From assembly GCF_001677475.2 (NCBI RefSeq), contig NZ_CP015229.1: a stretch of 64,000 nt of DNA, one strand, 5' to 3'. Below the pieces are notes generated by a model that had not been told where the DNA came from, made no database searches, and saw only the letters and a list, made by a program, of their open reading frames with translations. The stretch's first letter is position 1. Every line of letters begins with the position of its first letter. This document shows, piece by piece, positions 24,555-54,554 of the stretch. The DNA comes from Escherichia coli. Lineage in GTDB: Bacteria; Pseudomonadota; Gammaproteobacteria; Enterobacterales; Enterobacteriaceae. A program made the position numbers and the translations under genes.

Positions 24555-24590
24555 AAAAGGGGTTAGCATTTAGCTAACCCCTTATCTTAT
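24555..24590. terminator. Hairpin downstream of the serT 3' end
   Basis: ggggttagcatttagctaacccc stem-loop. Confidence 0.6.
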
Positions 24591-24591
24591 T

Positions 24592-24651
24592 TGGCGGAAG
24601 CGCAGAGATTCGAACTCTGGAACCCTTTCGGGTCGCCGGTTTTCAAGACCG
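24592..24651 (-). tRNA. serT: 3'-terminal ~60 nt of tRNA-Ser (serT), truncated at the anticodon stem; prophage attachment junction
   Basis: Reverse complement reads CGGTCTTGAAAACCGGCGACCCGAAAGGGTTCCAGAGTTCGAATCTCTGCGCTTCCGCCA; the 5' half (D-arm, acceptor) is absent and replaced by phage DNA. Confidence 0.85.
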
Positions 24652-24792: not shown

Positions 24793-25812
24793 CTACTTAC
24801 TGACCACAAGCGGCAAATCCAGTGTTGGCGTGATTTTGGTTTTACGATCGTAAATCAACACCTGATTTTCTGTTTTGTGTCCACTGAAAATTTGTTTGTC
24901 GCGACTGCTGCCTTCGTAATCTGAAATCCCTTTGGCTTTTATGTCATGGAAGTTGCACCCAAACGGAACGCCGGCTTTTTGCTCGGCTGCACGTTTAGCC
25001 TGATTCCACCAGTTGTTCAGCGTCTTGGCTATTACCTTCCCGCCTTTGGTTGTGTTGATCACATACTCGCATGTGCCGGAAGATACATTTCGGGCTAACT
25101 GGATCGCCGTACGTAATCGCGGAGACCATTCCTTGATTTGTTTAGTGCCAGTCTTGTTTTGCTCAATGTAAATCCCTTTATCCATAATATCCTGCCATTT
25201 CAGCTCGAGTACATCACCGAGCCTTGCCGCACAAAGATAGGATATCTCCATTGCAATACGTAACTGTGGAATTGCTTCCGCATATATTGCTGCATACTGT
25301 TCATCGGTGATGTAAACAGTACGGGCTTTAAGTGTGAATTTTCTGACACCTTTGCATGGATTATTTTTCACATACCCACGCTCATATCCCCATCCGTATA
25401 CACGGCTCAGACTTGCCAGTTCATGGTTTGCCTGGGTCTTGCTCTCAAGTCCTCGCTTATCCATGAAAATTCTTACCTGTTCAATTTTTACATTATCAGC
25501 AAGCACTTTTCCGAATACTGCCAACAATGCCCTTTGATGTTGCCGATAATCTTTTTGGGTTCGGGGGGCCAGTTCTGTAAATGCAGGGGAGTCCATAAAC
25601 ATGTGCCATAATTTAGCTACTGTCATTATGTTGTGGAGTTTTGCTTTTTCCAGCTCATAATTTTGCCAGACTTTAGCTACGCTGGTTTCCCGCACTCTTC
25701 CGAGCCCTATAGTTCTTGTGCTTCCTTCGGGTTTCCATACGTAACTGTAACCGTTCGATCTAACACGCGGTGGTAGTGCATTATCTTTTTTGTTTTTTCT
25801 TGGTCTTCCCAT
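24793..25812 (-). CDS. int: Prophage tyrosine integrase
   Basis: 339 aa, adjacent to tRNA junction, C-terminal H-x-x-K...GH...Y catalytic pattern. Confidence 0.85.
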   Translation of the reverse strand: MGRPRKNKKDNALPPRVRSNGYSYVWKPEGSTRTIGLGRVRETSVAKVWQNYELEKAKLHNIMTVAKLWHMFMDSPAFTELAPRTQKDYRQHQRALLAVFGKVLADNVKIEQVRIFMDKRGLESKTQANHELASLSRVYGWGYERGYVKNNPCKGVRKFTLKARTVYITDEQYAAIYAEAIPQLRIAMEISYLCAARLGDVLELKWQDIMDKGIYIEQNKTGTKQIKEWSPRLRTAIQLARNVSSGTCEYVINTTKGGKVIAKTLNNWWNQAKRAAEQKAGVPFGCNFHDIKAKGISDYEGSSRDKQIFSGHKTENQVLIYDRKTKITPTLDLPLVVSK

Positions 25813-26032
25813 TGTTCAGCGCCTCAAAATCGGGTTCAGCGGAAACCAGCTCAGGTGCTTTTGGCATCGTTGTCAGTCCGTGTGGAATATCCCTGCGAAG
25901 AACTATTGGTTCGTTTTTAGGACCGATTACAAATGGGATGCCGTGCAGCCTTAACTGGTGTTGCTGTTTTGTGTATCGCTCGTATTTCGTGATCTCTTGA
26001 ATCTCTGCTGGCGATAGAGTTAATTCGTACAT
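25781..26032 (-). CDS. xis: Putative excisionase
   Basis: 83 aa basic protein overlapping the int start; call by position. Confidence 0.5.
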   Translation of the reverse strand: MYELTLSPAEIQEITKYERYTKQQHQLRLHGIPFVIGPKNEPIVLRRDIPHGLTTMPKAPELVSAEPDFEALNNGKTKKKQKR

Positions 26033-26098
26033 GTGGTCACGTGCCTTACAGCATGACCGCCGCCAATATAATTCGGAGACGGCGATCAGGGGTGAACA

Positions 26099-28549
26099 TT
26101 AAAAATCAACCGGATTCGGGATCAGTTTTTGCCAGATTGCTGAAACGTATTTTGCCTGGTAACGAGCGTCATCAAGTGCATTATGGCGCTCACCTTCGAA
26201 TGGGATAGCTGTTCTGGCATCGAAGTCTATGGCTTTCCCCAGCTCAACGATTGTGCGTACATCGCGATCGTTGCAGTAGCGCCAAGGGCAGGGGATACCC
26301 TGTCGTTCGTATGAACGGCGTAAAATCACGTTGTCGAAGTTGGCCCCATTACCCCAGACCTGAACAAAAAATTCACCGGAGTTTTCGTCGATAAATTCCC
26401 GCAATTGCAGCAGTGCATCATCTAACGGGATTTCATCGGTCAGAATGGCAGATTGCGCCTCGCGTGATTGCTTAAGCCACCATTTTATGGTGTCACGATT
26501 AATGACTCCGCCAGCAGTTTCCAGATCGATGGTCTTACTAAATTCCGGCCCCATATCTCCGGTTTGCGGATCGAAAAATATTGCACCTATTGAGATAATC
26601 GGGGCATCGGGATTTTTTCCCATGGTTTCAAGGTCGATCATAAGATGGTCACATGACCTGCTTGTGGATGTGATATTGTGATAACCGTTCACCTTAATTA
26701 AGGGATCTGTTGCTTCGCCAGTTTCATTATCGCTGGCGTGATGCTGATTGCCTCCAGTGTTCTCCTTGTGTGGATGTTCAGCGCCTTCCATTTCCTCCGG
26801 ATCATTCTCCTGAGCTTCAACCTGATTCTCTTCATCGAATGTTTCCTGGTATGTTGCGTTTCCCATGACCGCGCCACAGTCAGGACAGTTGCCGCCGCTG
26901 CTCTGACCGCAGACGGTGCAGACTTTTTCCGGTTCCTGTTGCACTACTGGTTCGGATTGTTTCGTTTCTGGTTCGTTTTGTTGCGCATTTGGGCTGTTTT
27001 GTTCCGCTTTCTGGTCGTTCTGTGCCGTTTCTTGCTGGTTCTGGTTCACAGAATCGCGGGTTTCAATCCCCTTCACCCATTTCGGATCATTCGGGTCGCT
27101 AATCCCTGCAACAAATTCACCACGTGATGCAGCGAGCAACTGACTGGCGTCAGGCAGGCTGATATTGGCTGCCTGCATAATTTTGTTTACTTCGTCAGCG
27201 GTAACTTTTACCTGATTAACCGGATCTATCTGTGCCTGAGTATCCAGCGATTGCGTGTCCTGGCGAAGTTCAGTTGTATCCGGCTCCATTGCTTCAGTCG
27301 TTGCCTGTTCATCTGCCATTGCGTCAGACGGTTGTGATTTTTCATCATTATTTTTTTCTTCTTCTGTTTCGCGTTTAGCAGCCAGTTCGCGGTTAACTTC
27401 TTCCTGGATATCTTTTTCCGGTGTATGTCGTGCAGCAGCGAGAGTTTCTTCGGTAGGGTTCTCGTGATCAGTCTCCGTTAAGTGGGCGTTGATATACTCC
27501 TGAAGGCGTCCCGGGTAGAGATAAAGTTCAGGGTGAGCACTTCGGATAAGTGCAAAAATAGCGGCACGGGAATAATCCAGAATACCAGGGGTTGCGCGAA
27601 GTGCTGCGGACCATTCTTTGAACGGACTTTCTTTCTTCCGGACGACTTCTTTTGCGCGACGATAAACGCTGCCCGGAATTTCATAAATATTAAAATCCAT
27701 CGGAAGTGTGGCCGCTGCAATCTCCACATCCAGCGTATCGAAGGTGTGTACTAAATTCGGATTGCGATCGGTTTTGTTCCCGCCGCCAGCATTAGCACCG
27801 GAAGCCGTGCGGATGATGCGTGAAACACGATTCCCCTTCATCCACTCTTTTGTAAGCAGACCGCGATCGGTGTAGTCAGCGCCCAGGTATGCTTCGAAAA
27901 AAGCAGTCATCAGTCCCAGGTCTGAATTGCCAGGATTAGGGAAAACTTTGTCAGTGTCACGAACCAGTTTGTGGAGATCGCGAATTTCCAGCGGTTCGAG
28001 TTGCGCTGCTTTATTTGAGATGGCCAGCGCGGTAACGGCGGGAAGTTTTTCATCCTGTGCGTTATGTAATGCGCGCAGTTCGCCCCGCGAAACGTGAGTG
28101 ATCGGTTTTTCGCTGCCGTGCTGAGCAAGCCAGCGAATGGGAAGTATCTGGCCAGAAACCGGGAGTAGCATATTCTCCTCAATATCAGTCATGTCTTCGC
28201 CGTTGACGTTGGTATTGTCAGTGCTGGCTGGTTTATCCTGAACAGAGGGCGCGATAAATACCATTGTGATACCATCTTCCCCGCCTTTTTCGTATCGGTT
28301 GCAGAATTCGGTATCAAACACACCTTCCGGAGGCAGGTCATTCACAACGGGTAAATGGACGCGGACGGGTTTTTTAAAGTCGTCTTCATCATAATCGTTG
28401 TCATCCATTGCGGTAATACAACGGGAGATGGCAACAGATAATTTTTTTGCTGTGGTCCAGTAAAAACCACCTTTAATTCCCAGGCGTTTTCTGACTTTGT
28501 CATTTTTTGCTTCGCAATATAGCGCAAATTCTTCTTTTTCAGTGCTCAT
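26099..28549 (-). CDS. Large prophage exonuclease with C-terminal DnaQ-like (DEDDh) 3'-5' exonuclease domain and central acidic/Q-rich region
   Basis: 816 aa; C-terminus LMIDLETMGKN...HNALDDARYQA; CxxC...CxxC zinc ribbon; low-complexity E/Q/N-rich segment. Confidence 0.6.
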   Translation of the reverse strand: MSTEKEEFALYCEAKNDKVRKRLGIKGGFYWTTAKKLSVAISRCITAMDDNDYDEDDFKKPVRVHLPVVNDLPPEGVFDTEFCNRYEKGGEDGITMVFIAPSVQDKPASTDNTNVNGEDMTDIEENMLLPVSGQILPIRWLAQHGSEKPITHVSRGELRALHNAQDEKLPAVTALAISNKAAQLEPLEIRDLHKLVRDTDKVFPNPGNSDLGLMTAFFEAYLGADYTDRGLLTKEWMKGNRVSRIIRTASGANAGGGNKTDRNPNLVHTFDTLDVEIAAATLPMDFNIYEIPGSVYRRAKEVVRKKESPFKEWSAALRATPGILDYSRAAIFALIRSAHPELYLYPGRLQEYINAHLTETDHENPTEETLAAARHTPEKDIQEEVNRELAAKRETEEEKNNDEKSQPSDAMADEQATTEAMEPDTTELRQDTQSLDTQAQIDPVNQVKVTADEVNKIMQAANISLPDASQLLAASRGEFVAGISDPNDPKWVKGIETRDSVNQNQQETAQNDQKAEQNSPNAQQNEPETKQSEPVVQQEPEKVCTVCGQSSGGNCPDCGAVMGNATYQETFDEENQVEAQENDPEEMEGAEHPHKENTGGNQHHASDNETGEATDPLIKVNGYHNITSTSRSCDHLMIDLETMGKNPDAPIISIGAIFFDPQTGDMGPEFSKTIDLETAGGVINRDTIKWWLKQSREAQSAILTDEIPLDDALLQLREFIDENSGEFFVQVWGNGANFDNVILRRSYERQGIPCPWRYCNDRDVRTIVELGKAIDFDARTAIPFEGERHNALDDARYQAKYVSAIWQKLIPNPVDF

Positions 28550-28639: not shown

Positions 28640-28831
28640 TTAAAGTCCTGCCGGGACTTCGTTATTATCCATGCGAATAACTTTATCGACCGGATAACAG
28701 TTACCGGGAATTTTTTGTTCTGCTGCGGCAGCCATGCATTCTTTCATTGAACCGTATAAGCCAGTCACCAGCTCAAGAGATTCGCCGGAAACAAGATAAA
28801 CTGTCAGAACGAGTGCAAATGTTGTATTCAT
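28640..28831 (-). CDS. YdfD-like small protein
   Basis: 63 aa immediately downstream of the dicB-like gene, as in the Qin dicB-ydfD arrangement. Confidence 0.45.
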   Translation of the reverse strand: MNTTFALVLTVYLVSGESLELVTGLYGSMKECMAAAAEQKIPGNCYPVDKVIRMDNNEVPAGL

Positions 28832-29016
28832 TGTTTATATCCTTTTTGCCGCAGGTCCAGACGAGCCAGCATTGAAGGAATGCATACTTCATTTAACAGG
28901 TCCTGCTCGAGTGTTCTCTGCTTAATGGCGTCTTCAATAAATGTTTTGTCTCCGGTGATAACGCCAATTTCGAAACGAAGTTCAGACGTACTGGCATTGC
29001 ATGATAACTTTTCCAT
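28828..29016 (-). CDS. dicB: DicB-like cell division inhibitor
   Basis: 62 aa; FEIGV...EDAI..R...LLN..CI.SMLARL pattern matches DicB as recalled. Confidence 0.75.
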   Translation of the reverse strand: MEKLSCNASTSELRFEIGVITGDKTFIEDAIKQRTLEQDLLNEVCIPSMLARLDLRQKGYKQ

Positions 29017-29190
29017 TATCGCGTCCTCAACAATGAATTTTGTGATGCGGTGCCTGGTGCCTCCAGGTGACGTTAACCAGTTAACAATTAACGCCGGAGT
29101 ATTTCACGTTACGCCAGTAAAGGACCGCTTTACTGTTTTAACTGTTCCGCGTGCGCTTAGCCGCATTCACCGCATCACAAAATTCACTTT

Positions 29191-29245
29191 AAAAAGGGCG
29201 GACATCAGCCAGCAATGAAAACTGATGCCGCCAAAGGTACCAATC
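29191..29245 (-). ncRNA. dicF: DicF-like small RNA with intrinsic terminator
   Basis: Reverse strand reads TTTGGCGGCATCAGTTTTCATTGCTGGCTGATGTCCGCCCTTTTT, close to the recalled DicF sequence, immediately upstream of dicB. Confidence 0.5.
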
Positions 29246-29784
29246 AACATGGAGTGTTGCGGCGGGGTTGTCACTCAGGCGTATGGTCAACCTGACAACC
29301 CGGTGTCACCAGTGGGGGTAAGGAAAACCCCGCCATACTTACCGCCGCGCCATTTCGCGGAGTGCCACAACCGGAAGCGCACGGTCGACGAAAATTTAAC
29401 GACAGGCTATCTATGAACCATAAACCTCGCCGTGCGCTTTCGCGTTATGCCCTGACTTTTCAGGGAAATATCCTTTCAGTAAACTGTCAGTGCCGGATGT
29501 TCACCCGTGTCCGGCGCACGCACTCCACCTCACCCGTGGAGAACCCCTTAATTACCAACCCTCAGGAGAGTGAATGTTAAAATCAACTCTTATTGCTAAA
29601 TGCCTTTATCAAAATCGCATGGTAAGCAGCATTTCAATAGGCGAGTCTGCAGTTAAAAGTATTTTCGAAGAGTTCTTTCCCGGGCATGATTTTAATAAAT
29701 GGAATACCAAATTACCGCCAGCAGTTTCAACGCGTATTCTGAAAGCAACTGAAAGAGCAAGTACAATTCGCGTTAACTATTTCA

Positions 29785-30204
29785 TTAAAGATTTGTGGGA
29801 TCTTTGATATCCACAGAGCCTAAAGTATGTGCATATGGATGTGCTATTGTGCGCCCTCGCAGATTTGCATCATTTTCTAAATTCACTGAACGAAACAGGG
29901 CATCAACAAGGCTCTGTACAATGCAAAGGCAATCGAAGACTGTCGCTGTTTCTGTTTTGATTGATGAAAGAACATGGCCATTCACGCAAACAGAAATTAC
30001 CCGTTCATTAACATCGCTTTCCTGCTTTTGATTATCAGAACTATATAGCCCAGAAAAAGCATTGCGCACATTATGAACCATATTATCGATGGTTTCTTTT
30101 TCTACGGTACTCAGGTCAAGAGTCGCCAGTTGAGAACGAACTATATTCGCTGCCATTTCCTGGAATGGTACTGGTAAATCTTTAAATTCCATCGTCAACC
30201 TCAT
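29785..30204 (-). CDS. Hypothetical prophage early protein
   Basis: 139-aa ORF in the leftward early operon. Confidence 0.4.
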   Translation of the reverse strand: MRLTMEFKDLPVPFQEMAANIVRSQLATLDLSTVEKETIDNMVHNVRNAFSGLYSSDNQKQESDVNERVISVCVNGHVLSSIKTETATVFDCLCIVQSLVDALFRSVNLENDANLRGRTIAHPYAHTLGSVDIKDPTNL

Positions 30205-30207
30205 CAG

Positions 30208-30462
30208 TCAGTGGTTTTCAATCTCTCGTGAAACGTTTAATGCCGCGCTTTTTGCCAGAGTGGTAATATCCAGCTCCGCTGACGCCAGTTCTTTAGAGAG
30301 GTGCTCTTTGTTGTTAGCAGCCTGTTTCAGGTCATTAATGGCGCGTATCTTCCCGAACATCCATTCGTAAATTTCATCATCGGTATAGCCTGGTGCGATG
30401 ATGGTGGGTTCTGGTTTCTGCATGTCAGCTCCTTGTGGTTCGCATTGCCTGCTTTTAACCAC
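30208..30462 (-). CDS. Hypothetical prophage early protein
   Basis: 84-aa ORF; start may be the internal Met (MQKPEPTII). Confidence 0.4.
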   Translation of the reverse strand: MVKSRQCEPQGADMQKPEPTIIAPGYTDDEIYEWMFGKIRAINDLKQAANNKEHLSKELASAELDITTLAKSAALNVSREIENH

Positions 30463-30515
30463 GTCAGGCGAGGTGGTATCCTCTGAGGGGTCTGTTACTC
30501 GAGAGGAAATTGGTT

Positions 30516-30716
30516 ATGAATACAATCAAGTTTTCTTGCCCAGAATGTGGTGGCGAAGTCTTTGACACATCCTTTAAGCCGCAGGGCTCTGACAGTTTCG
30601 CGGGAGCCATCTGCAAAAATTGTGGTCACCTTGTAACTGAAGATGAGTCCTCGCAGTTCGATGACGAAATCGTTGATAATATCTTCGGCGCACTCACCAG
30701 AGATTTCCTGAAGTAA
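30516..30716 (+). CDS. Hypothetical zinc-ribbon protein
   Basis: CPECGG...CKNCGH pattern and GAGAGGAAA RBS; conflicts with antisense ORF 30495-30851. Confidence 0.35.
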   Translation: MNTIKFSCPECGGEVFDTSFKPQGSDSFAGAICKNCGHLVTEDESSQFDDEIVDNIFGALTRDFLK

Positions 30717-31116
30717 AAGCGCATGCCGTTTAGTTACCGCTCTGATCATTCTTACTTGTCCGGTAATGGCGCTGACATCAGTATAAAGCGCCATTGCTGC
30801 TTCTTTGCCGATCCCAGGATGCCTTCCATTCTGATGTTTGACTTCGCCCACTGAGAAATCCTCTGTTTCCCCTTAACGCCGGGGTAGCGGAACAAAAACC
30901 TGCTGCATAGTTAAAGTTGAACCCTGCCGTCATGTTCTTACGCCTCGGGCTGGCTACTTAACCCCTGACCACTGCCTGGTAACTCGAAGTATTGCCCTGC
31001 GTTTTGTGGGGCGGGGTGGGTTAGTAAAAATAGTTTATACAAAAATAAACTAAACAGTCAATATGCAACTTAACTCTTTGGCGAGGATAACCCCTGTTGA
31101 GAGGGGCTTCGGGGGA

Positions 31117-31404
31117 TTAAGGTGTTACAGGGAACTGTCGGCGGGCGTGAACTACGCTAACAATTTCAATGCCTGAAATTGTCACGCGGTATAGAATTAT
31201 GTAATTGGGGTGAGCAACAATTTCACGCAAACCCGGAACTCTGTCGCTTGGCGGGTATAAATACGGATGCTCAGATAATGGCAGGACGCAAGTCCTTAAG
31301 CGTTTCCACAAACGTTCTGCCGCATCTATATCAAAACGAGCAATATAGCTAGTTATATCATCCAAGTCGGCATCTGCGCTTTCGAGCCATAAAACCGGTA
31401 ACAT
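31117..31404 (-). CDS. RelE/ParE-family toxin
   Basis: 95 aa, small basic protein immediately downstream of a small antitoxin-like ORF. Confidence 0.6.
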   Translation of the reverse strand: MLPVLWLESADADLDDITSYIARFDIDAAERLWKRLRTCVLPLSEHPYLYPPSDRVPGLREIVAHPNYIILYRVTISGIEIVSVVHARRQFPVTP

Positions 31405-31631: not shown

Positions 31632-32027
31632 CTAGGTAACTTTTTGTTGTGCTGCTAGCCACCTTGCAACTATACGATCCATTGTCTCTTTTTTTTCCTT
31701 CATATCTTTAAGTATTTGCTGTTGATCTTCCTCTGGAAATGCCTCAAATGTTTGAAGTAGCTCCTTTTGCTTAGGAGATATTTTTAATATATCCTGTGTT
31801 TTGTCTTCTTTTTCTTCATTTAATGGTAAGAAAAACCAATGTTGGGGAAAACCCGTTACTTCAGATAGTTTATCTAGATTAGCTGCTGTAGGGCTTGATA
31901 TACCACAAACCCACCTTTGGACGGATTGTTGAGCAATACCAATTCTGCGCGCAAGCTCTGCTTGACTCCAGCCTTTTTCTAATAGAAGCATCTTAATTCT
32001 AAGAGCACTAATTTCGAGTACGCCCAT
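31632..32027 (-). CDS. XRE-family HTH repressor (CI/RacR-like), paralog A
   Basis: N-terminal HTH LRIKMLLLEKGWSQAELARRIGIAQQSVQRW; C-terminal domain shared with the next ORF. Confidence 0.65.
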   Translation of the reverse strand: MGVLEISALRIKMLLLEKGWSQAELARRIGIAQQSVQRWVCGISSPTAANLDKLSEVTGFPQHWFFLPLNEEKEDKTQDILKISPKQKELLQTFEAFPEEDQQQILKDMKEKKETMDRIVARWLAAQQKVT

Positions 32028-32057
32028 CTGATATCTCTTGTTCCAGTATGTATCCCG

Positions 32058-32429
32058 TCAGGCTCGGCGACCTTGTCGCGCCAACCAACGTGCAACAAGA
32101 TCTTCCATTGCCTCTTTTTTATTTCTTAGTTCTTTTATGATCTCCTGCTGTTCATTATCAGGAAAAGCACTAAATATTTGTAGTAATTCCAATTGGTTAG
32201 GGGTTAATGCCATAGATCTTGATGACGAAGATTCTGTTGTGTCTTCAGGTTCCATATCAAGATAACCCCCAGGCATCCCATATGTTTGCTCAATACGTCT
32301 AGCTGCCTTTTCGCCAAACGTAGATTTACCGCTCATTAACTGAGATAAGTAACTTTTCTCTTTAGGCGGCAAAGTCCTGTCTTTGAACCACTCTTTGAGG
32401 CGTAAACGCCGAATCTCTTTTGTTTCCAT
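32058..32429 (-). CDS. HTH repressor, paralog B, divergent from cro-like gene
   Basis: C-terminus LTPNQLELLQIFSAFPDNEQQEIIKELRNKKEAMEDLVARWLA parallels paralog A. Confidence 0.6.
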   Translation of the reverse strand: METKEIRRLRLKEWFKDRTLPPKEKSYLSQLMSGKSTFGEKAARRIEQTYGMPGGYLDMEPEDTTESSSSRSMALTPNQLELLQIFSAFPDNEQQEIIKELRNKKEAMEDLVARWLARQGRRA

Positions 32430-32531: not shown

Positions 32532-32819
32532 ATGACGCTAAAGGAATTCATCAAATCATTAAAAATTGGAGAAGCAAAAAAATTTGCGACCAACCTTGGT
32601 GTGTCTCCATCCTTCTTGTCCCAAATGGCATCTGGAACTTCACCTGTGTCTCCTGTTCGTGCGTTGATGATAGAAGCAGAAACTGGAGGACACGTTACAA
32701 GACGCGAATTGAGACCTAATGACTGGGAGCTTATATGGCCCGAATACACTGGAATCACGTCCCCTTCACGTCACAAATATGAACTTAACACCAAAAAGGC
32801 TGATGGGGTTGACTCATGA
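32532..32819 (+). CDS. Cro/YdaS-like HTH protein
   Basis: 95 aa; position and HTH as for Rac YdaS. Confidence 0.55.
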   Translation: MTLKEFIKSLKIGEAKKFATNLGVSPSFLSQMASGTSPVSPVRALMIEAETGGHVTRRELRPNDWELIWPEYTGITSPSRHKYELNTKKADGVDS

Positions 32820-33241
32820 TAATCAAGCATGAACACATCCGCATGGCGATGAATGCATGGGCGCATCCGGACGGTGAAAAAGTTCCGGCAGCTGAAATAA
32901 CCCGGGCTTATTTTGAGCTGGGTATGACGTTCCCGGAGCTATATGACGACAGGCATCCGGAAGCGCTGGCTCGTAATACCCAGAAAATTTTCCGCTGGCT
33001 GGATAAAGACACCCCTGATGCGGTTAAAAAAATTCAGGCGTTGTTACCAGCTATCGAAAAAGCAATGCCGCCTCTGCTGGTGGCCCGAATGCGCAGCCAC
33101 AGTTCAGCCTATTTTCGGGAACTGGTGGAGACGCGGGAACGACTGGTGAGAGACGCTGATGATTTTGTCGCAGTGGCGATCGCTGGTTTCAATCAGATGA
33201 ATCGTGGTGGTCCGGCGGGAAATGCCGTGGTGATGCACTAA
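32816..33241 (+). CDS. YdaT-like / CII-position protein
   Basis: 141 aa immediately after the cro-like gene. Confidence 0.4.
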   Translation: MIIKHEHIRMAMNAWAHPDGEKVPAAEITRAYFELGMTFPELYDDRHPEALARNTQKIFRWLDKDTPDAVKKIQALLPAIEKAMPPLLVARMRSHSSAYFRELVETRERLVRDADDFVAVAIAGFNQMNRGGPAGNAVVMH

Positions 33242-45206: not shown

Positions 45207-45689
45207 ATGTCAGGACCTCCGAAAACCCCGCCACGCCTGCATTTGATACGAGGCAACCCCTCAAAGCGCCCCGTTAAAGACCACAAAAAAACCGCTAAAA
45301 AGGATGAAAAAGGTCTTCCTAAAATTCCGCAGCATTTAGGGGCTCAGGGGAAGTACTGGTTCAGGCGAATGGCGGAAGAGCTGAATGCGGAAGGGATCAT
45401 TTCTCAGCTTGATGCGCGTGCACTCGAGTTGCTGGTGGAAGCCTACACCGAATATCGGCATCACTGCGAAACACTCGATGTTGAGGGGTATACCTACCGC
45501 ACGGAAACGCAGAGCGGTGATGTACTGATTAAGGCGCACCCCGCGGCGGCAATGAAAGCGGATGCCTGGAAGCGGATCCGGGCAATGCTTGCAGAGTTTG
45601 GTATGTCACCGGCAAGCCGGGCTAAAGTAAATATCGCCGGACCGGATGATGTTGATCCGCTGGCGGAGCTTTTAAAAGCGAGAGACTGA
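45207..45689 (+). CDS. Terminase small subunit (P27-family-like)
   Basis: 160 aa; homologous to the satellite TerS at 59601. Confidence 0.7.
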   Translation: MSGPPKTPPRLHLIRGNPSKRPVKDHKKTAKKDEKGLPKIPQHLGAQGKYWFRRMAEELNAEGIISQLDARALELLVEAYTEYRHHCETLDVEGYTYRTETQSGDVLIKAHPAAAMKADAWKRIRAMLAEFGMSPASRAKVNIAGPDDVDPLAELLKARD

Positions 45690-46716
45690 TGGCAAAAGTG
45701 GCTGACGGGATCCGCTACGCCGAACGTGTTGTTGCAGGAGAAATTGTTGCTGGCGAATTTGTCCGCCTGGCCTGCCAGCGTTTTCTTGATGATCTGAAGT
45801 ACGGCGAAGAGCGGGGGATTTATTTCAGTGAACCCCGTGCGCAGCACATCCTGAATTTCTACAAATTTGTGCCTCATGTAAAAGGGGCGCTGGCAGGCCA
45901 GCCCATTGAGTTGATGGACTGGCATGTATTTATTCTCATTAATATTTTTGGTTTTGTCATTCCGCTGGTCAATGAAGAGACCGGGGAAGTTGTCATGCGC
46001 AGCGATGGCAGTGGACGTCCGGTGATGGTGCGCCGGTTCCGGACGGCGTACAACGAAGTCGCTCGTAAAAACGCAAAATCAACTCTGTCATCGGGTATCG
46101 GCCTGTATATGACGGGGGCAGATGGTGAAGGCGGAGCTGAGGTGTATTCAGCCGCAACCACGCGTGACCAGGCCAGAATCGTGTTTGAAGACGCCAAAAA
46201 TATGGTCAGAAAAGCCCGGTCGACACTCGGGCGGTTGTTTGATTTCAACAAGCTGGCGATTTACCAGGAGCAGAGCGCATCAAAATTTGAACCGCTTTCT
46301 TCGGATGCAAACAACCTAGACGGTCTGAACATCCACTGCGCCATTATTGATGAGCTGCATGCACATAAAACCCGCGACGTGTGGGACGTTCTGGAAACGG
46401 CAACCGGTGCCCGTCTGCAGTCCCTGTTATTTGGTATCACCACGGCGGGCTTTAACAAGGAAGGGATTTGTTACGAGCAACGCGATTACGCCATCAAGGT
46501 ATTGCGAGGCTATAACAGCGACGTGGAGGGCGCGGTAAAAGACGACTCCTACTTTGCGATTATTTACACGCTCGATGAGGGAGATGATCCGTTTGATGAA
46601 ACGGTCTGGCAGAAAGCGAATCCGGGCCTGGGCATCTGTAAACGCTGGGATGATCTGCGTCGTCTGGCGAAAAAAGCGAAGGAGCAGGTCTCGGCGCGGG
46701 TGAATTTTTTCACGAA
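45689..46716 (+). pseudogene. Prophage terminase large subunit, N-terminal ~343 codons, interrupted by satellite insertion
   Basis: Aligns with satellite TerL N-terminus (PHVKGA..G.PIEL..W); frame runs into unrelated satellite DNA and stops at 46882. Confidence 0.8.
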
Positions 46717-46845
46717 GAAAGTAACATCACGCCGTAACAACAGTGCAGTCTGTCCTGATTTTTTTAGTAACCAAATGAAAGAAAAAGATTTTTTCTTGTT
46801 CGTCGTTTTTGTTTTTTCTGGATGGTTCTGGCTGTTTTCATCATT

Positions 46846-46867
46846 TGTGTATTGCACTGTGTATTGC
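46846..46867. repeat. Tandem GTGTATTGC repeats near satellite left end
   Basis: tgtgtattgcactgtgtattgc; near-identical copy at 62023-62043. Confidence 0.6.
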
Positions 46868-46887
46868 AAAAACGGGTTATAAATCAC

Positions 46888-48111
46888 ATGGCGCTAAACA
46901 AACTGAGCGATAAAAAACTTCGTTCCCTGCTTGGACGCAGGAGTGAGAGACAGGAAACCATCGCTGATGGTAACGGGCTTTCGGTACGGGTCAGTAAATA
47001 CGGATGTGTTAGTTTTGTTTTCTTTTACAGACTGGCGGGAAGGGGAACCGCGCCCATCTGGCTGACACTTGGAAAATATCCTGATCTGAGTCTCAAATCA
47101 GCGAGAGAGATGCGCGATCAGTGTCGAACCTGGCTTGCGGAGGGCAGAGATCCACGGATTCAGATAAAAATTGAACGGGAAGCCACCTTGCAACCTGTTA
47201 CCGTTCGTGAGGCACTTGAATACTGGCTTGATAATTATGCAATGGATAAGCGTAGGGGAGCAGAACATATCAGGCAGTGCTTTGGTAAACATATTTATCC
47301 GGTGATTGGTCATGTACCACTTAGTGATTGCTCTATATCTATGTGGATTAAGTGTTTTGACAAAATAAAAAAAGTAGCACCTGTACAGGCCGGAGCTTTG
47401 TTGCGTATATCAAAACAGGCGCTTAAATTTTGTAGGGTAAGAAAATACGCGATTAGTCATGAAATTGATGATCTTGAGGTCTGTGATGTGGGAAAAAAGT
47501 CTGCGCGAAGAAGCAGGGTTTTAACAGATGATGAAATCAGAGATTTATGGCGAAGTATTAATACTGATTATGACAATCACGAATTATCATATGAAAACCG
47601 AATTATTTTACGTTTCCTGGTAGTTTTTGGTTGCCGACTGTCAGAAGTATTACTGTCGTCCTGGGGAGAGTGGGATTTTGATAAGAAATTATGGCGCGTT
47701 CCCGCTGAACATAGCAAAAATGGCAGGGAAATAATCAGACCGATTCCTGATGGCATGTTTAACTGGTTAGTTACGTTAAAAAAAATAACAGGTAACAAAG
47801 AAAATGTGATTGGGTTTGATATGCGTCAGTGTACGGCAAGCGTAACTATCGGTAAGACATGGAAAAGGATGAAACACTCGGAGAAATGGACGGCGCATGA
47901 TATGCGAAGAGTGTTTGCCACAAAACTAAGTGATCATGGTTTTGAACATAATGTGGTTGAACAGTTGCTTGGGCACACATTAGGCGGTGTTGCCGGGGTT
48001 TATAACAGAAGCCAGTATATGGACAGAAAAAAAGAAGCTATGAACTGGTGGTACGACTATCTGAATAAGCAAATTAGTGGTGACGGTAATGATTCAAATA
48101 GTTACGCGTGA
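46888..48111 (+). CDS. int: P4-type tyrosine integrase
   Basis: 407 aa from MALNKLSDKKLRSLLGRR..GLSVRVSKYG (typical P4-family N-terminus); HDMRRVFAT...LGH...Y. Confidence 0.85.
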   Translation: MALNKLSDKKLRSLLGRRSERQETIADGNGLSVRVSKYGCVSFVFFYRLAGRGTAPIWLTLGKYPDLSLKSAREMRDQCRTWLAEGRDPRIQIKIEREATLQPVTVREALEYWLDNYAMDKRRGAEHIRQCFGKHIYPVIGHVPLSDCSISMWIKCFDKIKKVAPVQAGALLRISKQALKFCRVRKYAISHEIDDLEVCDVGKKSARRSRVLTDDEIRDLWRSINTDYDNHELSYENRIILRFLVVFGCRLSEVLLSSWGEWDFDKKLWRVPAEHSKNGREIIRPIPDGMFNWLVTLKKITGNKENVIGFDMRQCTASVTIGKTWKRMKHSEKWTAHDMRRVFATKLSDHGFEHNVVEQLLGHTLGGVAGVYNRSQYMDRKKEAMNWWYDYLNKQISGDGNDSNSYA

Positions 48112-48142
48112 AGAACTTGAAAATGATAAAACAATCGACAGG

Positions 48143-48310
48143 ATGATTAAGGAAGATGAATGTGCATGGTTAACCGCTCTTGGCAGGAGACACAGATCGT
48201 TACTTGAAAAGGAAGGAAAATTTCCACGAAAAATATGTATTGGTCCACAAACAAAAGTCTGGCGCTTATCTGAGGTGCTGGAATGGGTAAAAGGTGAATG
48301 GAAACCCTGA
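48143..48310 (+). CDS. AlpA-family DNA-binding protein, copy 1
   Basis: ORF 48077-48310; start at the internal Met (MIKEDECAWLTALG...); LSEVLEWV. Confidence 0.6.
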   Translation: MIKEDECAWLTALGRRHRSLLEKEGKFPRKICIGPQTKVWRLSEVLEWVKGEWKP

Positions 48311-48333
48311 GCTAAATTAAATGAGATATAATC

Positions 48334-48357
48334 AACCCGTCTTTTGGCGGGTTTTTT
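48334..48357 (+). terminator. Intrinsic terminator
   Basis: aacccgtcttttggcgggttttttt. Confidence 0.6.
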
Positions 48358-48373
48358 TATAGGTGATATTTTT

Positions 48374-48652
48374 ATGCAAAAATTTATTTATCCTACACCC
48401 GAAGAACGCATTCAGATTCTGAAAGATCATGGCGAACCGTATGATCGCCGTATACGCGAACATGAGTGTGCCAATCGTACCGGGCTTTCAAGAAGCAGAC
48501 GTTGGGTACTTGAACAGGAGGGAGCATTTCCTGCTCGTGCTCATTTAGGGAAAGTGTCTGTTTCCTGGTTGCTCTCTGATGTGCTCTGGTGGGTTATGCA
48601 TCCGCCAGGAGTAAAGGAAGTAAACAGCCCATACAAAAACGCCAATAAGTAA
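48374..48652 (+). CDS. AlpA-family DNA-binding protein, copy 2
   Basis: From MQKFIYPTPEER; ECANRTGLSRSRRWVLEQEGAFPA. Confidence 0.6.
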   Translation: MQKFIYPTPEERIQILKDHGEPYDRRIREHECANRTGLSRSRRWVLEQEGAFPARAHLGKVSVSWLLSDVLWWVMHPPGVKEVNSPYKNANK

Positions 48653-48660
48653 TTACCGAC

Positions 48661-48690
48661 AACCCCGCACCACGCAATGCGGGGTTTTTT
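48661..48690 (+). terminator. Intrinsic terminator
   Basis: aaccccgcaccacgcaatgcggggtttttt. Confidence 0.65.
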
Positions 48691-48706
48691 GTATGTGAGG
48701 TAGAAA

Positions 48707-49303
48707 GTGATGAATAAAAATATTGCCGTGACGGGCAAGGGTGACGCACGTCATGTGAAAAAATTCTGTGATATTCGTGATCTGGTCGTTCTGCGCTTTG
48801 ATAGTGTGAACGTTCGCGTGGTGTATCTGAACGGCGATCCGTGGTTTGTTGGCGCTGATGTGTGTGCGGCGCTGGAAATTAGCAACGTTACCGATGCTGT
48901 TTCAGTTCTGGATAACGATGAGGTAATGACCCTAGCTTTAACCGAGGGTCATTCAGGTAAGCGTGGTGGTGCCAGAAGTTGGAATGTTGTATCAGAATCA
49001 GGTTTTTACAAGTTGATCGCCAGAAGTCGCAAAGCTGTTAATCCTGGCACGTTCGCCCATCGTTTCAGTAATTGGGTATTCAGAAATGTGATACCGGGTA
49101 TCAGAAAAACGGGGGCTTATGGTATCCCGTGGGGCGCATTACAGGATTTTTCCCGCCGCAAAGAGCAATATCAGGTAAGTGCCAGCGAGAAGGGGAGGGA
49201 GCTACAGGCATGTAAGCGCAAAAAGCGTGAGCTAGAGGAAGAAGAAAAAAGGCTGATACGTGAATATCAGCCTGAGTTTTACTTTGGTGAGCGTATTCAG
49301 TAA
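48707..49303 (+). CDS. Bro-N domain protein (antirepressor-like)
   Basis: 198 aa; N-terminal ...VYLNGDPWFVGADVCAALEISNVTDAVSVLDNDE. Confidence 0.6.
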   Translation: MMNKNIAVTGKGDARHVKKFCDIRDLVVLRFDSVNVRVVYLNGDPWFVGADVCAALEISNVTDAVSVLDNDEVMTLALTEGHSGKRGGARSWNVVSESGFYKLIARSRKAVNPGTFAHRFSNWVFRNVIPGIRKTGAYGIPWGALQDFSRRKEQYQVSASEKGRELQACKRKKRELEEEEKRLIREYQPEFYFGERIQ

Positions 49304-49915
49304 CCACACGCGGTGCTGATTATACGGTACATCGTGTTAACCGAGAAGCTACCCACCAGCAAGGCAAAATCTTCTGCTAAAAAATGACATATGGCCAGTC
49401 GTCTGGAAAGCATGAAATTTTACAAAAATGGAAAATGAAGATTTTTATTGTGCTGGTGGGTAAAAACAAAAAGCGCCCCGTTGCCGGAGCGCCCTTGCGA
49501 ACAATTAACCTACTGCGCAAAAAAATGAATCTGTGCAGGGGGATTATATCAACCGTGTGACGAAGCGCCACAATTGCCGGATAACAGGCAAAGAAAAGGC
49601 CACCCGCTACGGTGGCCCTTCGACACAAGCTACACGTTATCCCCAACGCATGAGCGTCGCCAACAATGCCACATTTGCGGCTGGTGGGCAATGTGATCAG
49701 TGTGCTGGCTTGCTGGTGGGCTATTCCTGCTCTTTGGCCTTGCGTTGCTTTAGTGCTGCACGAGCTAATCAATCATTGTATATGAGGCGTGGAATCTTTT
49801 TTTCATCACTCCTGCATACACGCTCATTACTGACGTGTTCATTGCTGATGCAATTTCCCAGGAGGAAAGCAAATAAAAACAAAGAGCCAAGCCAGTATAG
49901 TACTTGCTGCATAAG

Positions 49916-50101
49916 TTATTCCTTATCTGATTCTTTGGTTTTTTTCCGTTGGCGGCGTTTGATCTCGCCACGCATGGCTGCGCTTATAAACTGCCCTGTA
50001 CTTTCGCCATCTTCTTTCACGTTTTCCATGCCTTCAATAATTTCATGGGCAATACGTGCAGTTACAGATTGTGATTTTGCATTCTTTGGACCTGTTGCCA
50101 T
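49916..50101 (-). CDS. Small putative ribbon-helix-helix regulator
   Basis: 61 aa from MATGPKNAKSQSVTARIAHEIIEG; GAGGGG RBS; divergent from rightward operon. Confidence 0.4.
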   Translation of the reverse strand: MATGPKNAKSQSVTARIAHEIIEGMENVKEDGESTGQFISAAMRGEIKRRQRKKTKESDKE

Positions 50102-50122
50102 GTCTAACCCCTCATGTTTTTG

Positions 50123-50204
50123 GTGTAAGACAATATACACGAAAAAAAACTATTTTAAAGGGTTGACGTGTAAGACACTGTTGTTTTATGTTGTGTCTTA
50201 CACC
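50123..50204. promoter_or_regulatory. Candidate operator array: three GTGTAAGACA(C) sites
   Basis: Sites at 50123-50132, 50168-50178 and inverted 50194-50204 (11-bp palindrome, 15-bp spacer) overlapping a TTGACG -35-like hexamer. Confidence 0.5.
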
Positions 50205-50300
50205 TTGAGTGTTCAAGGTTCAGAAACTGCGAAGCCCGTAGGTGCCGCTAACACCCACAGGCTTCTAACCACCAACGATAGTAATAGTATCGAGGCAGCT

Positions 50301-50504
50301 ATGAGAAATCATACCACACACCCGCAAGGGCGGGACTCGCACAACCTGAATAAATACATCTGGCGTTTTATCGCCCTGAGCACGGCACAACCGCGCGTAA
50401 TTCACATCGTGGCCACCAGCGAACAGGAAGCGCGTCAGCAATCTCCTGATGGCTGCGTGATGGTATTCGCCGCCCGTATTCGTCAGGGGTCACATCATGC
50501 GTAA
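50301..50504 (+). CDS. Small Icd-like/Ash-family-like protein, copy 1 (tentative)
   Basis: C-terminal WRF...ATSEQEARQQ...VFAARIRQG motif shared with the next ORF. Confidence 0.35.
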   Translation: MRNHTTHPQGRDSHNLNKYIWRFIALSTAQPRVIHIVATSEQEARQQSPDGCVMVFAARIRQGSHHA

Positions 50505-50790
50505 AAACCGCTTGCAAAAAATTATCACGGGACTGTATGCTTCCCGCGTCACCCACATGGTGACCGGGTTTGACAGCCTGAATACTACAGCGGACAGCCG
50601 CTTACATTCCGATATGCGGTTTTTTTGTGTCCGTAAACCTACCCATACCCGCATTATGGCGGGGCGTAACGGGGGAGCCTTTGCGCTCGCTGGTTCCTGT
50701 AGTGCCAGTCTGTCAACCCTGTTACGTCTCGCCACCATGTTTGACAGCGTAGTAGCGAGACTCCTTAATTTCACTACAGGAGCCTTTCAC

Positions 50791-50964
50791 ATGGCTGTAT
50801 CCACACGCCCTTATTTTGTCTGGCGCTTCATGCAGTGCCATGAAAAACAAACCTCACTCTTTACCGTCACGGCTGCCACTGAGCGCGAAGCACGCGCGCA
50901 GCTGCCGCACGCACATCTGATTTTTGTCGCCCGTATCCGTCAGGGGGTAAACCATGTTCAGTAA
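50791..50964 (+). CDS. Small Icd-like/Ash-family-like protein, copy 2 (tentative; may extend upstream to 50497)
   Basis: C-terminal VWRF...AATEREARAQ...IFVARIRQG. Confidence 0.35.
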   Translation: MAVSTRPYFVWRFMQCHEKQTSLFTVTAATEREARAQLPHAHLIFVARIRQGVNHVQ

Positions 50965-51175
50965 CAACACACCGGACGCAGCCGCAAAAGCGTTAACCAC
51001 GCTGATGCACGCGCTGATTGATATTGAATGCACGGCAGAGCTTGCGCAGAACAAAGGGAAGGAAGATTACACCGCGTTCTGCCTGGAATGTATCCGCTAT
51101 ATTTCTTCCCGCTCTCTGGATGAGGCTAAAAATATTCTTATTGCTGATTGTGAAAATGGGGGGGGTTATGCGTGA
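50954..51175 (+). CDS. Hypothetical protein
   Basis: 73-aa ORF. Confidence 0.3.
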   Translation: MFSNNTPDAAAKALTTLMHALIDIECTAELAQNKGKEDYTAFCLECIRYISSRSLDEAKNILIADCENGGGYA

Positions 51176-51391
51176 TGATCGTTTTAATTCCCTGAAACAG
51201 GAATTTTCCGGCGTGCCTGATGATGCGGCTGATGCGCTTTCGTCAATATCTGAAATAATGAGGGCGGCTTTTTTTCTTTCTTTGCACTGATGAGCACAGG
51301 GATACAGGGTTAAATATTCTTGATATCGCCGCTAACTATGCTGACTTCGTAACGGAAGCAGCGTCAAGAAAAACAACGGGTGGGGATTAAT

Positions 51392-51625: not shown

Positions 51626-51630
51626 AAATA

Positions 51631-54212: not shown

Positions 54213-54227
54213 GCAGTGAGGTACAGC

Positions 54228-54509: not shown

Positions 54510-54554
54510 TAACGGTTGTTAACTGTTTCTGGTATCGTGGTAGCAGGAGGAAAC

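What the first reader, a model, noticed from the sequence alone, without database searches (positions are those of the whole stretch)
28640..29250. Complete dicF-dicB-ydfD-like division-inhibition module
A DicB-like 62-aa protein is preceded by a DicF-like sRNA with its terminator hairpin and followed by a YdfD-like gene. In K-12 this module lives in the defective Qin prophage; here it sits in an apparently complete prophage.
Basis: partly seen in the sequence, partly recalled or inferred. Interest (0 to 1): 0.5.

Follow-up and report, generated by a model that had tools for sequence, protein, structure and literature searches.

The report
Prophage dicB-ydfD cassette, variant DicF
This is the ordinary, very widespread cell-division-inhibition cassette (dicB and ydfD behind a small-RNA hairpin) of an E. 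coli lambdoid prophage, except that the small RNA here is an uncommon allele that has lost the sequences the classic DicF uses to silence ftsZ, and the prophage is not intact because another mobile element sits inside its terminase gene.

Summary
The three features are on the minus strand at the stated coordinates. They are ydfD-like (28640-28831), dicB-like (28828-29016) and a DicF-position terminator hairpin (29196-29245).

DicB passes NCBIfam's curated cut-off, at 53% identity to K-12. YdfD is a DUF1482 protein, at 65% identity.

The locus is homologous to K-12 Qin dicF-dicB-ydfD: the flanks are 84-99% identical. However, the DicF-equivalent segment is only 59% identical and scores 44.1 bits in Rfam DicF, below the gathering score of 48; K-12 DicF scores 76.7.

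Both target-recognition parts of DicF are replaced. An accessibility-corrected pairing model recovers the known K-12 DicF sites on ftsZ and xylR. It gives no favourable pairing for the window allele.

The module is commonplace. It matches 4753 of 5426 complete E. coli genomes and many isolated lambdoid phages.

The prophage, integrated at serT, is not "apparently complete". Its terL gene is split by a 15.4-kb satellite-like insertion, and the window ends before its head and tail genes.

Verdict: an ordinary known module with a minor-allele sRNA. Interest is low.

The parts
28640..28831 (-). ydfD-like gene (63 aa, DUF1482). Its start overlaps the dicB stop by ATGA.
   Evidence: Pfam DUF1482 E=1.3e-20. 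phrog_1092. 65% identical to K-12 YdfD. K-12 ydfD is annotated 'lysis protein'.
28828..29016 (-). dicB-like gene (62 aa).
   Evidence: NCBIfam NF049927 at 117.4 bits, above the cut-off of 100. phrog_1251. 53% identical to K-12 DicB.
29017..29195 (-). Structured leader between the hairpin and dicB. A long-range helix (arms 29168-29190 and 29032-29052) encloses small hairpins. The GAGGA Shine-Dalgarno sequence lies just 3' of the helix. The U-run is 29191-29195.
   Evidence: Fold of 29010-29340(-): -128.9 kcal/mol, z=-4.9. Sub-threshold Rfam STnc100 match at 29039-29184 (38 bits, gathering score 47), also seen in the K-12 spacer. The 3' 77 nt are 99% identical to K-12 and the 5' 66 nt are 92% identical.
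29196..29250 (-). DicF-position RNA: a terminator hairpin (stem GGCGGCAUCAG/CUGAUGUCCGCC, loop UUUUCAUUGCUGG) plus a 5' tail. It is a non-K-12 allele.
   Evidence: Rfam DicF 44.1 bits, below the gathering score of 48. 59% identical to K-12 DicF. MFE -20.1 kcal/mol. No favourable ftsZ, xylR or pykA pairing.
29265..29301 (-). Conserved upstream hairpin (GGGUUGUCA...UGACAACCC) in the untranslated stretch 5' of the DicF position.
   Evidence: 84% identical to K-12 across 29251-29318. Paired in the MFE structure.
29785..31404 (-). Upstream small ORFs of the same leftward operon: 29785-30204, 30208-30462, 30495-30851 and 31117-31404. They are not ydfA/B/C homologues.
   Evidence: PHROG families of unknown function. 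No NCBIfam names.
31632..32429 (-). Two tandem HTH repressor genes distantly related to DicA (31632-32027 and 32058-32429), at the head of the leftward operon.
   Evidence: phrog_5736 transcriptional regulator. NCBIfam DicA subfamily at only 56 and 32 bits, against a cut-off of 101.
32532..33241 (+). Divergent Cro-like gene (32532-32819) and CII-like gene (32816-33241): the start of the rightward operon.
   Evidence: phrog_35 and phrog_163.
24587..24651 (-). Left prophage end: a 65-nt exact copy of the 3' part of tRNA-Ser (serT), next to yccA.
   Evidence: blastn 65/65 against the ETEC1748 tRNA-Ser region. Context yccA...serT.
24793..28549 (-). Integrase (24793-25812) and an 816-aa exonuclease (26099-28549), downstream of ydfD in the same leftward operon.
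   Evidence: phrog_1/7244 integrase and phrog_607/20376 exonuclease.
45689..46716 (+). N-terminal part of the prophage's terminase large-subunit gene, cut off by the insertion.
   Evidence: phrog_9 positions 169-448. The in-silico join gives a 585-aa ORF. The joined junction matches as one uninterrupted piece in 905 genomes.
46717..62125 (+). A 15,409-bp nested element, like a capsid-forming PICI. It encodes an integrase, an anti-repressor, repressors, a C4 RNA, a primase/helicase-like protein, a major head protein, a portal and its own TerL. The 7-bp core TCACGAA is present at both ends.
62126..62855 (+). C-terminal part of the prophage's terminase large-subunit gene.
   Evidence: phrog_9 positions 449-673..

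Best explanation
The region is the division-inhibition cassette of the early-left (P_L-type) operon of a lambdoid prophage integrated at serT in E. coli.

**Proposed mechanism.** When the DicA-like repressor is inactivated, leftward transcription runs through small ORFs, then a conserved hairpin, then the DicF-position terminator hairpin, then a highly conserved structured leader, and then dicB, ydfD, exo and int.

**Inferred from the K-12 homologues.**
- DicB (62 aa) recruits MinC to the division ring and blocks Z-ring assembly. It may also block superinfection through ManYZ.
- YdfD (DUF1482) is the co-translated small membrane/lysis protein.

**The RNA at the DicF position.** It is a true positional and structural homologue of DicF: same locus, same GGCGG/CCGCC terminator stem, same U-tail and same processing context. 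However, it is a different allele. The 5' tail and the apical/3' arm, which K-12 DicF uses to pair with xylR and ftsZ, are replaced.

**Conclusion.** Division inhibition by this prophage therefore most likely rests on DicB, not on antisense silencing of ftsZ. The hairpin acts as an intra-operon terminator and processing element. It possibly also yields an sRNA with other, unknown targets.

**Shown and inferred.** Shown: homology, anatomy, allele replacement and loss of predicted pairing. Inferred: expression, processing and protein activities.
For: **Anatomy and homology**
- Coordinates and ORFs.
- DicB passes the NCBIfam cut-off. YdfD is DUF1482. Identities to K-12 are 53% and 65%.
- Alignment with K-12 Qin. 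Segment identities are 84% for the upstream hairpin, 59% for the DicF equivalent, 92% and 99% for the leader ends, 72% for dicB and 78% for ydfD.

**Rfam scores**
- 44.1 bits for the window against 76.7 bits for K-12, with a gathering score of 48.

**Pairing model (duplex energy plus opening energies)**
- K-12 DicF-ftsZ: -9.1 kcal/mol at -28..-7.
- K-12 DicF-xylR: -8.5 kcal/mol, through DicF nt 6-18 at +6..+19. This agrees with PMC5069750.
- Window allele: +2.9 to +5.9 kcal/mol for ftsZ, xylR and pykA.

**Alleles in 120 IMG/VR loci** (51 distinct over the 58-nt stretch modelled; 55 over a longer 78-nt stretch)
- All 20 alleles with ACUCCGU (62 loci) pair favourably, 19 of them at the ftsZ ribosome-binding site.
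- All 9 window-type alleles (15 loci) do not.

**Operon context**
- DicA-like repressors lie upstream on the same strand, with divergent cro- and cII-like genes. Exonuclease and integrase lie downstream.
- Basal stem variants GGCGG/CCGCC, GGUGG.CCGCC and GGUGG/CCACC indicate that the structure is maintained.
Against: - No expression data are available.
- The pairing model is simple. It ignores Hfq and used the K-12 ftsZ leader rather than this host's.
- A weak manX interaction (-2.5 kcal/mol) is predicted.
- DicB is only 53% identical to the tested K-12 protein, so MinC/ZipA targeting is assumed, not shown.
- The IMG/VR sample was restricted to loci with an exact 26-mer anchor and was capped at 120 loci.
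Confidence: 0.75

Rival explanations
1. Canonical reading: the hairpin RNA is a functional DicF that represses ftsZ translation by antisense pairing, so the module carries two division inhibitors as in Qin.
For: - The locus, terminator stem and U-tail are the same as for DicF. Rfam DicF is the best family match, with E=4.5e-8 locally.
- The flanks are homologous to K-12.
Against: - The score is below Rfam's gathering threshold.
- The anti-Shine-Dalgarno core ACUCCG is replaced by CAUUGC.
- The best predicted ftsZ interaction is unfavourable (+2.9 to +5.9 kcal/mol) and lies away from the ribosome-binding site. The same model gives -9.1 kcal/mol at the ribosome-binding site for K-12 DicF.
- All 9 window-type alleles behave the same way.
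Confidence: 0.08
2. The hairpin RNA is a trans-acting, Hfq-type sRNA with a different seed and therefore different host or phage targets. The seed would be the conserved loop (C/A)AUUGCUGG and/or the 5' tail. On this view the DicF position is a swappable sRNA cassette.
For: - The locus carries discrete allele classes. Their loops are conserved within a class, while the 5' tails next to them are mosaic.
- The hairpin segment is the least conserved non-coding stretch (59%), lying between 84-99% identical flanks.
- The terminator, the U-tail and the U-rich stretch 5' of the stem, which are typical of Hfq-binding sRNAs, are retained.
Against: - No target was identified. The window holds no convincing complementary site.
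- The stem is stronger than in K-12 (-20.1 against -15.9 kcal/mol), leaving only the loop accessible.
- Loop conservation within a class could simply reflect recent common descent.
Confidence: 0.35
3. The hairpin is only a cis element. It would be an intrinsic terminator or attenuator and RNase processing signal that gates read-through into dicB-ydfD, with no trans-acting role. Its variable apical sequence would be neutral.
For: - It is a strong GC stem plus a U-run placed directly before a conserved 21-bp helix that looks like an RNase III substrate.
- The basal stem is maintained by wobble and compensatory changes, while the apical part varies freely between classes.
- Some alleles are reduced to a short hairpin, for example GGCGGAAACGGAUAUCCGCC.
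Against: - The K-12 allele of the same element is a proven trans-acting sRNA (PMC5069750).
- Loop sequences are conserved within allele classes.
Confidence: 0.4

Closest known systems
E. coli K-12 Qin prophage dicBF operon (ydfABC-dicF-dicB-ydfD)
   Same: - The order is the same: hairpin RNA, structured leader, dicB, then ydfD with an ATGA overlap.
- The flanks and leader are 84-99% identical.
- DicB and YdfD are homologues, at 53% and 65% identity.
- A DicA-type repressor lies upstream on the same strand, with a divergent cro-like gene.
   Different: - The sRNA allele has a different 5' tail and a different apical/3' arm. It is 59% identical, scores below the Rfam gathering score, and has no predicted ftsZ or xylR pairing.
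- The upstream ORFs are not ydfA/B/C.
- The repressors are only distantly DicA-like.
- Downstream, exo-xis-int are intact rather than IS-disrupted.
dicF/dicB copies in other lambdoid prophages and isolated phages (EHEC O157 prophages; phages Tritos, mEp460, HannyBb, PPompW/Stx2a phages; the Stx2g prophage of strain MFDS1019527)
   Same: - The same cassette sits in the same operon position.
- MFDS1019527 carries a 99% identical copy, including the identical sRNA allele, in an Stx2g prophage at another integration site.
   Different: - Most copies carry the K-12-type DicF: 3953 genomes and 6604 places.
- The window allele type was found in only 84 genomes, which is a lower bound.
Rac prophage kilR cassette (and, by position, lambda kil)
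   Same: In related IMG/VR loci the same hairpin position and the same conserved leader precede a 73-77-aa KilR-like protein instead of dicB-ydfD. The division-inhibitor gene behind the leader is therefore interchangeable.
   Different: The window carries dicB-ydfD, not kilR. KilR is unrelated in sequence to DicB.
Rfam RF02076 STnc100 (gammaproteobacterial sRNA candidate)
   Same: The dicF-dicB leader matches this model in both the window (38 bits) and K-12 (34.4 bits), including the closing helix.
   Different: Both scores are below the gathering score of 47, so the match indicates similarity, not membership.

Membership tests
DicF sRNA (Rfam RF00039) | Score at or above Rfam's curated gathering threshold (48 bits). 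| tested here: not met
   The window scores 44.1 bits and was not reported in the gathering-mode scan. The K-12 control scores 76.7 bits.
DicF sRNA (Rfam RF00039) | Location inside the dicB operon, immediately 5' of the conserved leader and dicB. | tested here: met
   Alignment with K-12 Qin. The flanks are 84-99% identical.
DicF sRNA (Rfam RF00039) | Rho-independent terminator hairpin with a U-tail forming the 3' end. | tested here: met
   GGCGGCAUCAG...CUGAUGUCCGCC followed by UUUUU, -20.1 kcal/mol.
DicF sRNA (Rfam RF00039) | A 3' region complementary to the ftsZ ribosome-binding site (the division-inhibiting activity). | tested here: not met
   ACUCCGUGACUGCUCUGCC is replaced by CAUUGCUGGCUGAUGU-CC. 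Net interaction is +2.9 to +5.9 kcal/mol, against -9.1 for K-12. All 9 window-type alleles give positive values.
DicF sRNA (Rfam RF00039) | A 5' region pairing with xylR (and pykA). | tested here: not met
   K-12 nt 6-18 pair with xylR at +6..+19 at -8.5 kcal/mol. The window gives +4.3 for xylR and +4.5 for pykA.
DicF sRNA (Rfam RF00039) | Hfq dependence and RNase E/RNase III processing to RNAs of about 53 and 72 nt. | not testable with these tools
   This needs Northern blots or CLIP. Only the 21-bp helix 3' of the hairpin, a plausible RNase III substrate, is seen.
DicB cell-division inhibitor (NCBIfam NF049927) | Full-length match above the curated cut-off, for a protein of about 62 aa. | tested here: met
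   117.4 bits against a cut-off of 100, covering 1-62/62. 53% identical to K-12 DicB.
DicB cell-division inhibitor (NCBIfam NF049927) | MinC-dependent, ZipA-targeted block of Z-ring assembly. | not testable with these tools
   This is known for K-12 DicB (my recollection of the literature, not checked here). No residue-level determinants were available to check.
YdfD / DUF1482 (Pfam PF07358) | A DUF1482 domain covering a protein of about 63 aa, encoded immediately after dicB. | tested here: met
   Pfam E=1.3e-20, covering 2-57/57. 65% identical to K-12 YdfD. ATGA overlap with dicB.
Intact (inducible) lambdoid prophage | Uninterrupted packaging and morphogenesis genes, and both attachment sites. 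| tested here: not met
   terL is split at 46716/62126 by a 15.4-kb insert. attL is present. Portal, head and tail genes and attR lie beyond the window, so they are not assessable.

The most novel reading that the evidence does not exclude
The DicF position of lambdoid early-left operons may be a hot-swappable sRNA cassette.

- A fixed terminator stem and a nearly invariant processing leader would carry interchangeable 5' tails and apical loops.
- The window's minor allele (loop UUUUCAUUGCUGG, no ftsZ or xylR pairing) would then be a distinct prophage sRNA that reprogrammes a different, still unknown host or phage mRNA.
- This sRNA position is combined with interchangeable division inhibitors (dicB-ydfD or kilR).
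Probability: 0.3. Interest if true: 0.5.

Novelty: new member of a known kind. Interest (0 to 1): 0.2.

Why it matters
As reported, the finding changes little. The dicBF cassette is one of the commonest prophage modules in E. coli, and its presence in functional lambdoid phages is already documented.

The useful correction concerns annotation. A 'DicF' call by position or by weak covariance-model hit should not be read as 'ftsZ antisense RNA'. In this sample of the locus, only alleles with the ACUCCGU core are predicted to pair with the ftsZ ribosome-binding site, and roughly half of the sampled loci carry other alleles.

If those other alleles are active sRNAs, prophages would supply a set of different post-transcriptional regulators from one conserved scaffold.

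Tried and rejected
1. **Plain duplex folding.** RNAduplex of the whole sRNA against a 120-nt ftsZ leader did not discriminate. K-12 itself reached only z=-1.1 against shuffles. I replaced it with windowed duplex energies plus opening energies, which recovered the published K-12 sites.
2. **Search for a target inside the window.** The complement of the loop, with up to 3 mismatches, gave 10 hits against 3.2 expected. Apart from the locus itself, none is a convincing site at a translation start. A genome-wide target search was not possible with these tools.
3. **AgvB-like anti-sRNA idea.** I asked whether the C/A-rich stretch 5' of the hairpin could be an AgvB-like anti-GcvB sponge. I rejected this because AgvB-type dyads lie between the late promoter and the lysis genes, not here (PMC7873438).
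4. **Papers not held.** Melson & Kendall 2019 (EHEC dicF copies) and Faubladier & Bouché 1994 (dicF-like prophage sequences) were not in the library. I therefore could not check whether non-ftsZ alleles were already described there. Searches for 'DicF-like' and for DicF variants found nothing explicit.
5. **Terminator scan.** The simple terminator scan does not flag the DicF hairpin, because its loop exceeds the scan's 8-nt limit. That is not evidence against the hairpin.
6. **Duplication as the cause of the split terL.** I rejected this. The two fragments are only 29-33% identical to the insert's own TerL, and they abut exactly at one residue.

Full report
**1. What is there**

On the minus strand the window holds the following features, in 5'-to-3' order:
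- a conserved hairpin at 29265-29301;
- a terminator-type hairpin RNA at the DicF position, at 29196-29245, with a U-run at 29191-29195;
- a structured leader at 29017-29190;
- a 62-aa ORF at 28828-29016;
- an overlapping 63-aa ORF at 28640-28831.

The 62-aa protein matches NCBIfam 'cell division inhibition protein DicB' over its full length. It scores 117.4 bits against a curated cut-off of 100 and is 53% identical to K-12 DicB.

The 63-aa protein is a DUF1482 protein (Pfam E=1.3e-20). It is 65% identical to K-12 YdfD, which RefSeq annotates as 'lysis protein'.

The RNA matches Rfam DicF end to end, with E=4.5e-8 in a 1.2-kb search. Its score of 44.1 bits is below the family's gathering score of 48, so the whole-window gathering-mode scan did not list it. 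K-12 DicF scores 76.7 bits in the same test.

**2. Homology with K-12 Qin, segment by segment**

An alignment of window 28600-29330(-) with K-12 dicF-dicB-ydfD gives these identities:

| Segment | Identity to K-12 |
|---|---|
| Upstream hairpin region | 84% |
| 5' part of the leader | 92% |
| 3' 77 nt of the leader, up to the dicB start | 99% |
| dicB | 72% |
| ydfD | 78% |
| DicF-equivalent segment | 59% |

The terminator base (UUUGGCGG...CCGCCCUUUUU) is kept. The 5' tail differs: K-12 has UUUCUGGUGACG and the window has GAUUGGUACC. The apical/3' arm also differs: K-12 has ACUCCGUGACUGCUCUGCC and the window has CAUUGCUGGCUGAUGU-CC.

According to Balasubramanian et al. 2016 (PMC5069750), the 3' region of DicF pairs with the ftsZ ribosome-binding site and the 5' end pairs with xylR. 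These are exactly the two parts that are replaced here.

**3. Does the window RNA keep the DicF 'seed'?**

A plain duplex calculation was uninformative. I therefore scored windowed duplex energies plus the cost of opening both partners.

For K-12 DicF the model recovers two published interactions and predicts a site on a third published target:
- ftsZ at -28..-7, through DicF nt 32-53, at -9.1 kcal/mol;
- xylR at +6..+19, through DicF nt 6-18, at -8.5 kcal/mol;
- a site at the pykA ribosome-binding site, at -12.1 kcal/mol. The pykA site was not compared with the published one.

For the window allele the best values are +2.9 to +5.9 for ftsZ (away from the ribosome-binding site), +4.3 for xylR, +4.5 for pykA and a weak -2.5 for manX.

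The caveats are that the model ignores Hfq and that it used the K-12 ftsZ leader.

**4. The DicF position is mosaic**

The stretch upstream of the anchor falls into 55 distinct alleles over 78 nt, or 51 over the 58-nt stretch used for modelling. These form discrete classes:
- the K-12/ftsZ type, with the ACUCCGU core, in 62 loci;
- a class with ...CUUGAAGUUCG..., in 29 loci;
- the window type, with ...AUUGCUGGCUGAUG..., in 15 loci;
- several others, including very short hairpins.

All 20 ACUCCGU alleles give favourable net energies (-12.0 to -1.9 kcal/mol), 19 of them at the ftsZ ribosome-binding site. All 9 window-type alleles, and both other main classes, give positive values.

The basal stem is maintained through GGCGG/CCGCC, GGUGG.CCGCC and GGUGG/CCACC.

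Behind the same leader the gene is either dicB-ydfD or a 73-77-aa KilR-like protein, depending on the locus. The cassette is therefore modular: a variable RNA head, a near-invariant leader and an interchangeable division inhibitor.

The leader folds into a long-range 21-bp helix directly after the terminator and directly before the dicB Shine-Dalgarno sequence (z=-4.9). This fits the RNase III processing described for the K-12 operon (PMC9438474). The leader gives sub-threshold Rfam STnc100 hits in both the window and K-12.

**5. How common is it?**

- The 1.1-kb region matches 4753 of 5426 complete E. coli genomes, with a median of 2 places per genome.
- It also matches 59 deposited phage records, including Tritos, where DicF is annotated. 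Further lambdoid and Stx phages appear.
- K-12-type DicF is present in 3953 genomes, at 6604 places.
- The window's allele type was found in 84 genomes. This is a lower bound, because megablast needs a 28-nt exact word.
- An identical copy occurs in one genome, in an Stx2g prophage of strain MFDS1019527 at a different chromosomal site.
- The literature already notes dicBF in multiple prophage contexts and in multiple copies in O157 (PMC5069750; PMC7873438).

Presence of the module in a non-Qin prophage is therefore not new.

**6. Context, and the 'complete prophage' claim**

The host is E. coli: window 1-25000 is 98.9% identical to E. coli chromosomes and includes genes such as helD; yccA next to the prophage end is placed by the ETEC1748 annotation.

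The prophage's left end is a 65-nt copy of the 3' part of tRNA-Ser (serT) at 24587-24651. Strain ETEC1748 has a degraded prophage at the same yccA-serT site.

The layout is lambdoid:
- integrase and an 816-aa exonuclease downstream of ydfD;
- two tandem DicA-like repressors and divergent cro- and cII-like genes;
- an O-like replication gene, a Q antiterminator and two tRNAs;
- holin, endolysin and Rz;
- terS.

However, the terminase large-subunit gene is split. Its N-part (45689-46716) and C-part (62126-62855) abut at one residue when compared with a TerL homologue. They join in silico to a 585-aa ORF. The joined junction matches as one uninterrupted piece in 905 genomes, where it is annotated 'terminase large subunit'.

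The 15,409-bp insert (46717-62125, with the core TCACGAA at both ends) encodes:
- an integrase;
- an anti-repressor and repressors;
- a C4 antisense RNA;
- a primase/helicase-like protein;
- a major head protein and a portal;
- its own TerL.

No tail gene was seen among the larger ORFs scanned. The related element in E. coli 042 occupies the same position. It is annotated with capsid, protease, portal, connector, HNH, TerS and TerL, and also has no tail genes. This gene content is that of capsid-forming PICIs (PMC10085698).

The same terL-to-integrase junction occurs in 35 genomes.

The prophage is thus not intact as it stands, and the window ends before its own portal, head and tail genes.

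**7. Verdict**

The reading is partly supported.
- **dicB and ydfD:** true members of their families.
- **The RNA:** a positional and structural homologue of DicF. It fails three tested defining features: the Rfam threshold, ftsZ complementarity and xylR complementarity.
- **The prophage:** not complete.

The finding is an ordinary, already well-known module. The only mildly interesting point is the allele diversity at the DicF position.

Noticed in passing
window 45689-62855 (insert 46717-62125): A 15.4-kb element resembling a capsid-forming PICI is integrated inside the prophage's terminase large-subunit gene.

- It encodes an integrase, an anti-repressor, repressors, a C4 RNA, a primase/helicase-like protein, iteron-like repeats AAAAAGTGGGG at 53335, 53420 and 53503, a major head protein, a portal and its own TerL. 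No tail gene was seen among the ORFs scanned.
- It has a 7-bp core, TCACGAA, at both ends.
- The in-silico repaired junction is uninterrupted in 905 E. coli genomes. The same occupied junction occurs in 35 genomes. E. coli 042 has a related element at the same position.
- I found no explicit statement in the papers I read that this satellite family uses prophage terL as its attachment site.
   Followed up: partly
window 50652-50739 (+): There is an Rfam C4 antisense RNA (72.3 bits, gathering score 45) inside the nested element, overlapping repressor-like ORFs. The related element in E. coli 042 has an Icd-like 'host cell division inhibitor' gene in the corresponding region. This would be a second, unrelated division-inhibition function in the same window.
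   Followed up: no
window 29017-29195 (-); K-12 L001:4433-4642: The dicF-dicB leader is more conserved than the genes it separates. Its 3' 77 nt are 99% identical to K-12, against 72% for dicB. It gives sub-threshold Rfam STnc100 matches in both genomes. It is closed by a 21-bp long-range helix.
   Followed up: partly
IMG/VR loci L003-L122 (for example L005, L006, L008): In many related loci the same hairpin position and leader precede a KilR-like 73-77-aa protein instead of dicB-ydfD. All 27 assessable loci of the CUUGAAGUUCG allele class lack DicB and YdfD.
   Followed up: partly
window 31632-32027 and 32058-32429 (-): Two tandem paralogous HTH repressor genes (both phrog_5736, weakly DicA-like) stand where a single dicA/cI-type gene is expected.
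   Followed up: no
window 29574-29807 (+): A 77-aa ORF with a full-length PHROG match (phrog_10348, E=8e-47) lies in the opposite orientation inside the leftward operon, just upstream of the DicF-position untranslated region.
   Followed up: no
window 42380-42455 and 42555-42631 (+): tRNA-Met(CAT) and tRNA-Arg(TCT) lie downstream of the Q antiterminator (40258-41079). This is the position where Stx phages carry tRNAs and stx genes. No stx genes are present here. The near-identical dicB module of strain MFDS1019527 lies in an Stx2g prophage.
   Followed up: no
window 24587-24651 (-): An exact 65-nt copy of the 3' part of tRNA-Ser (serT) marks the left prophage end next to yccA. ARAGORN finds no complete tRNA there.
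   Followed up: yes
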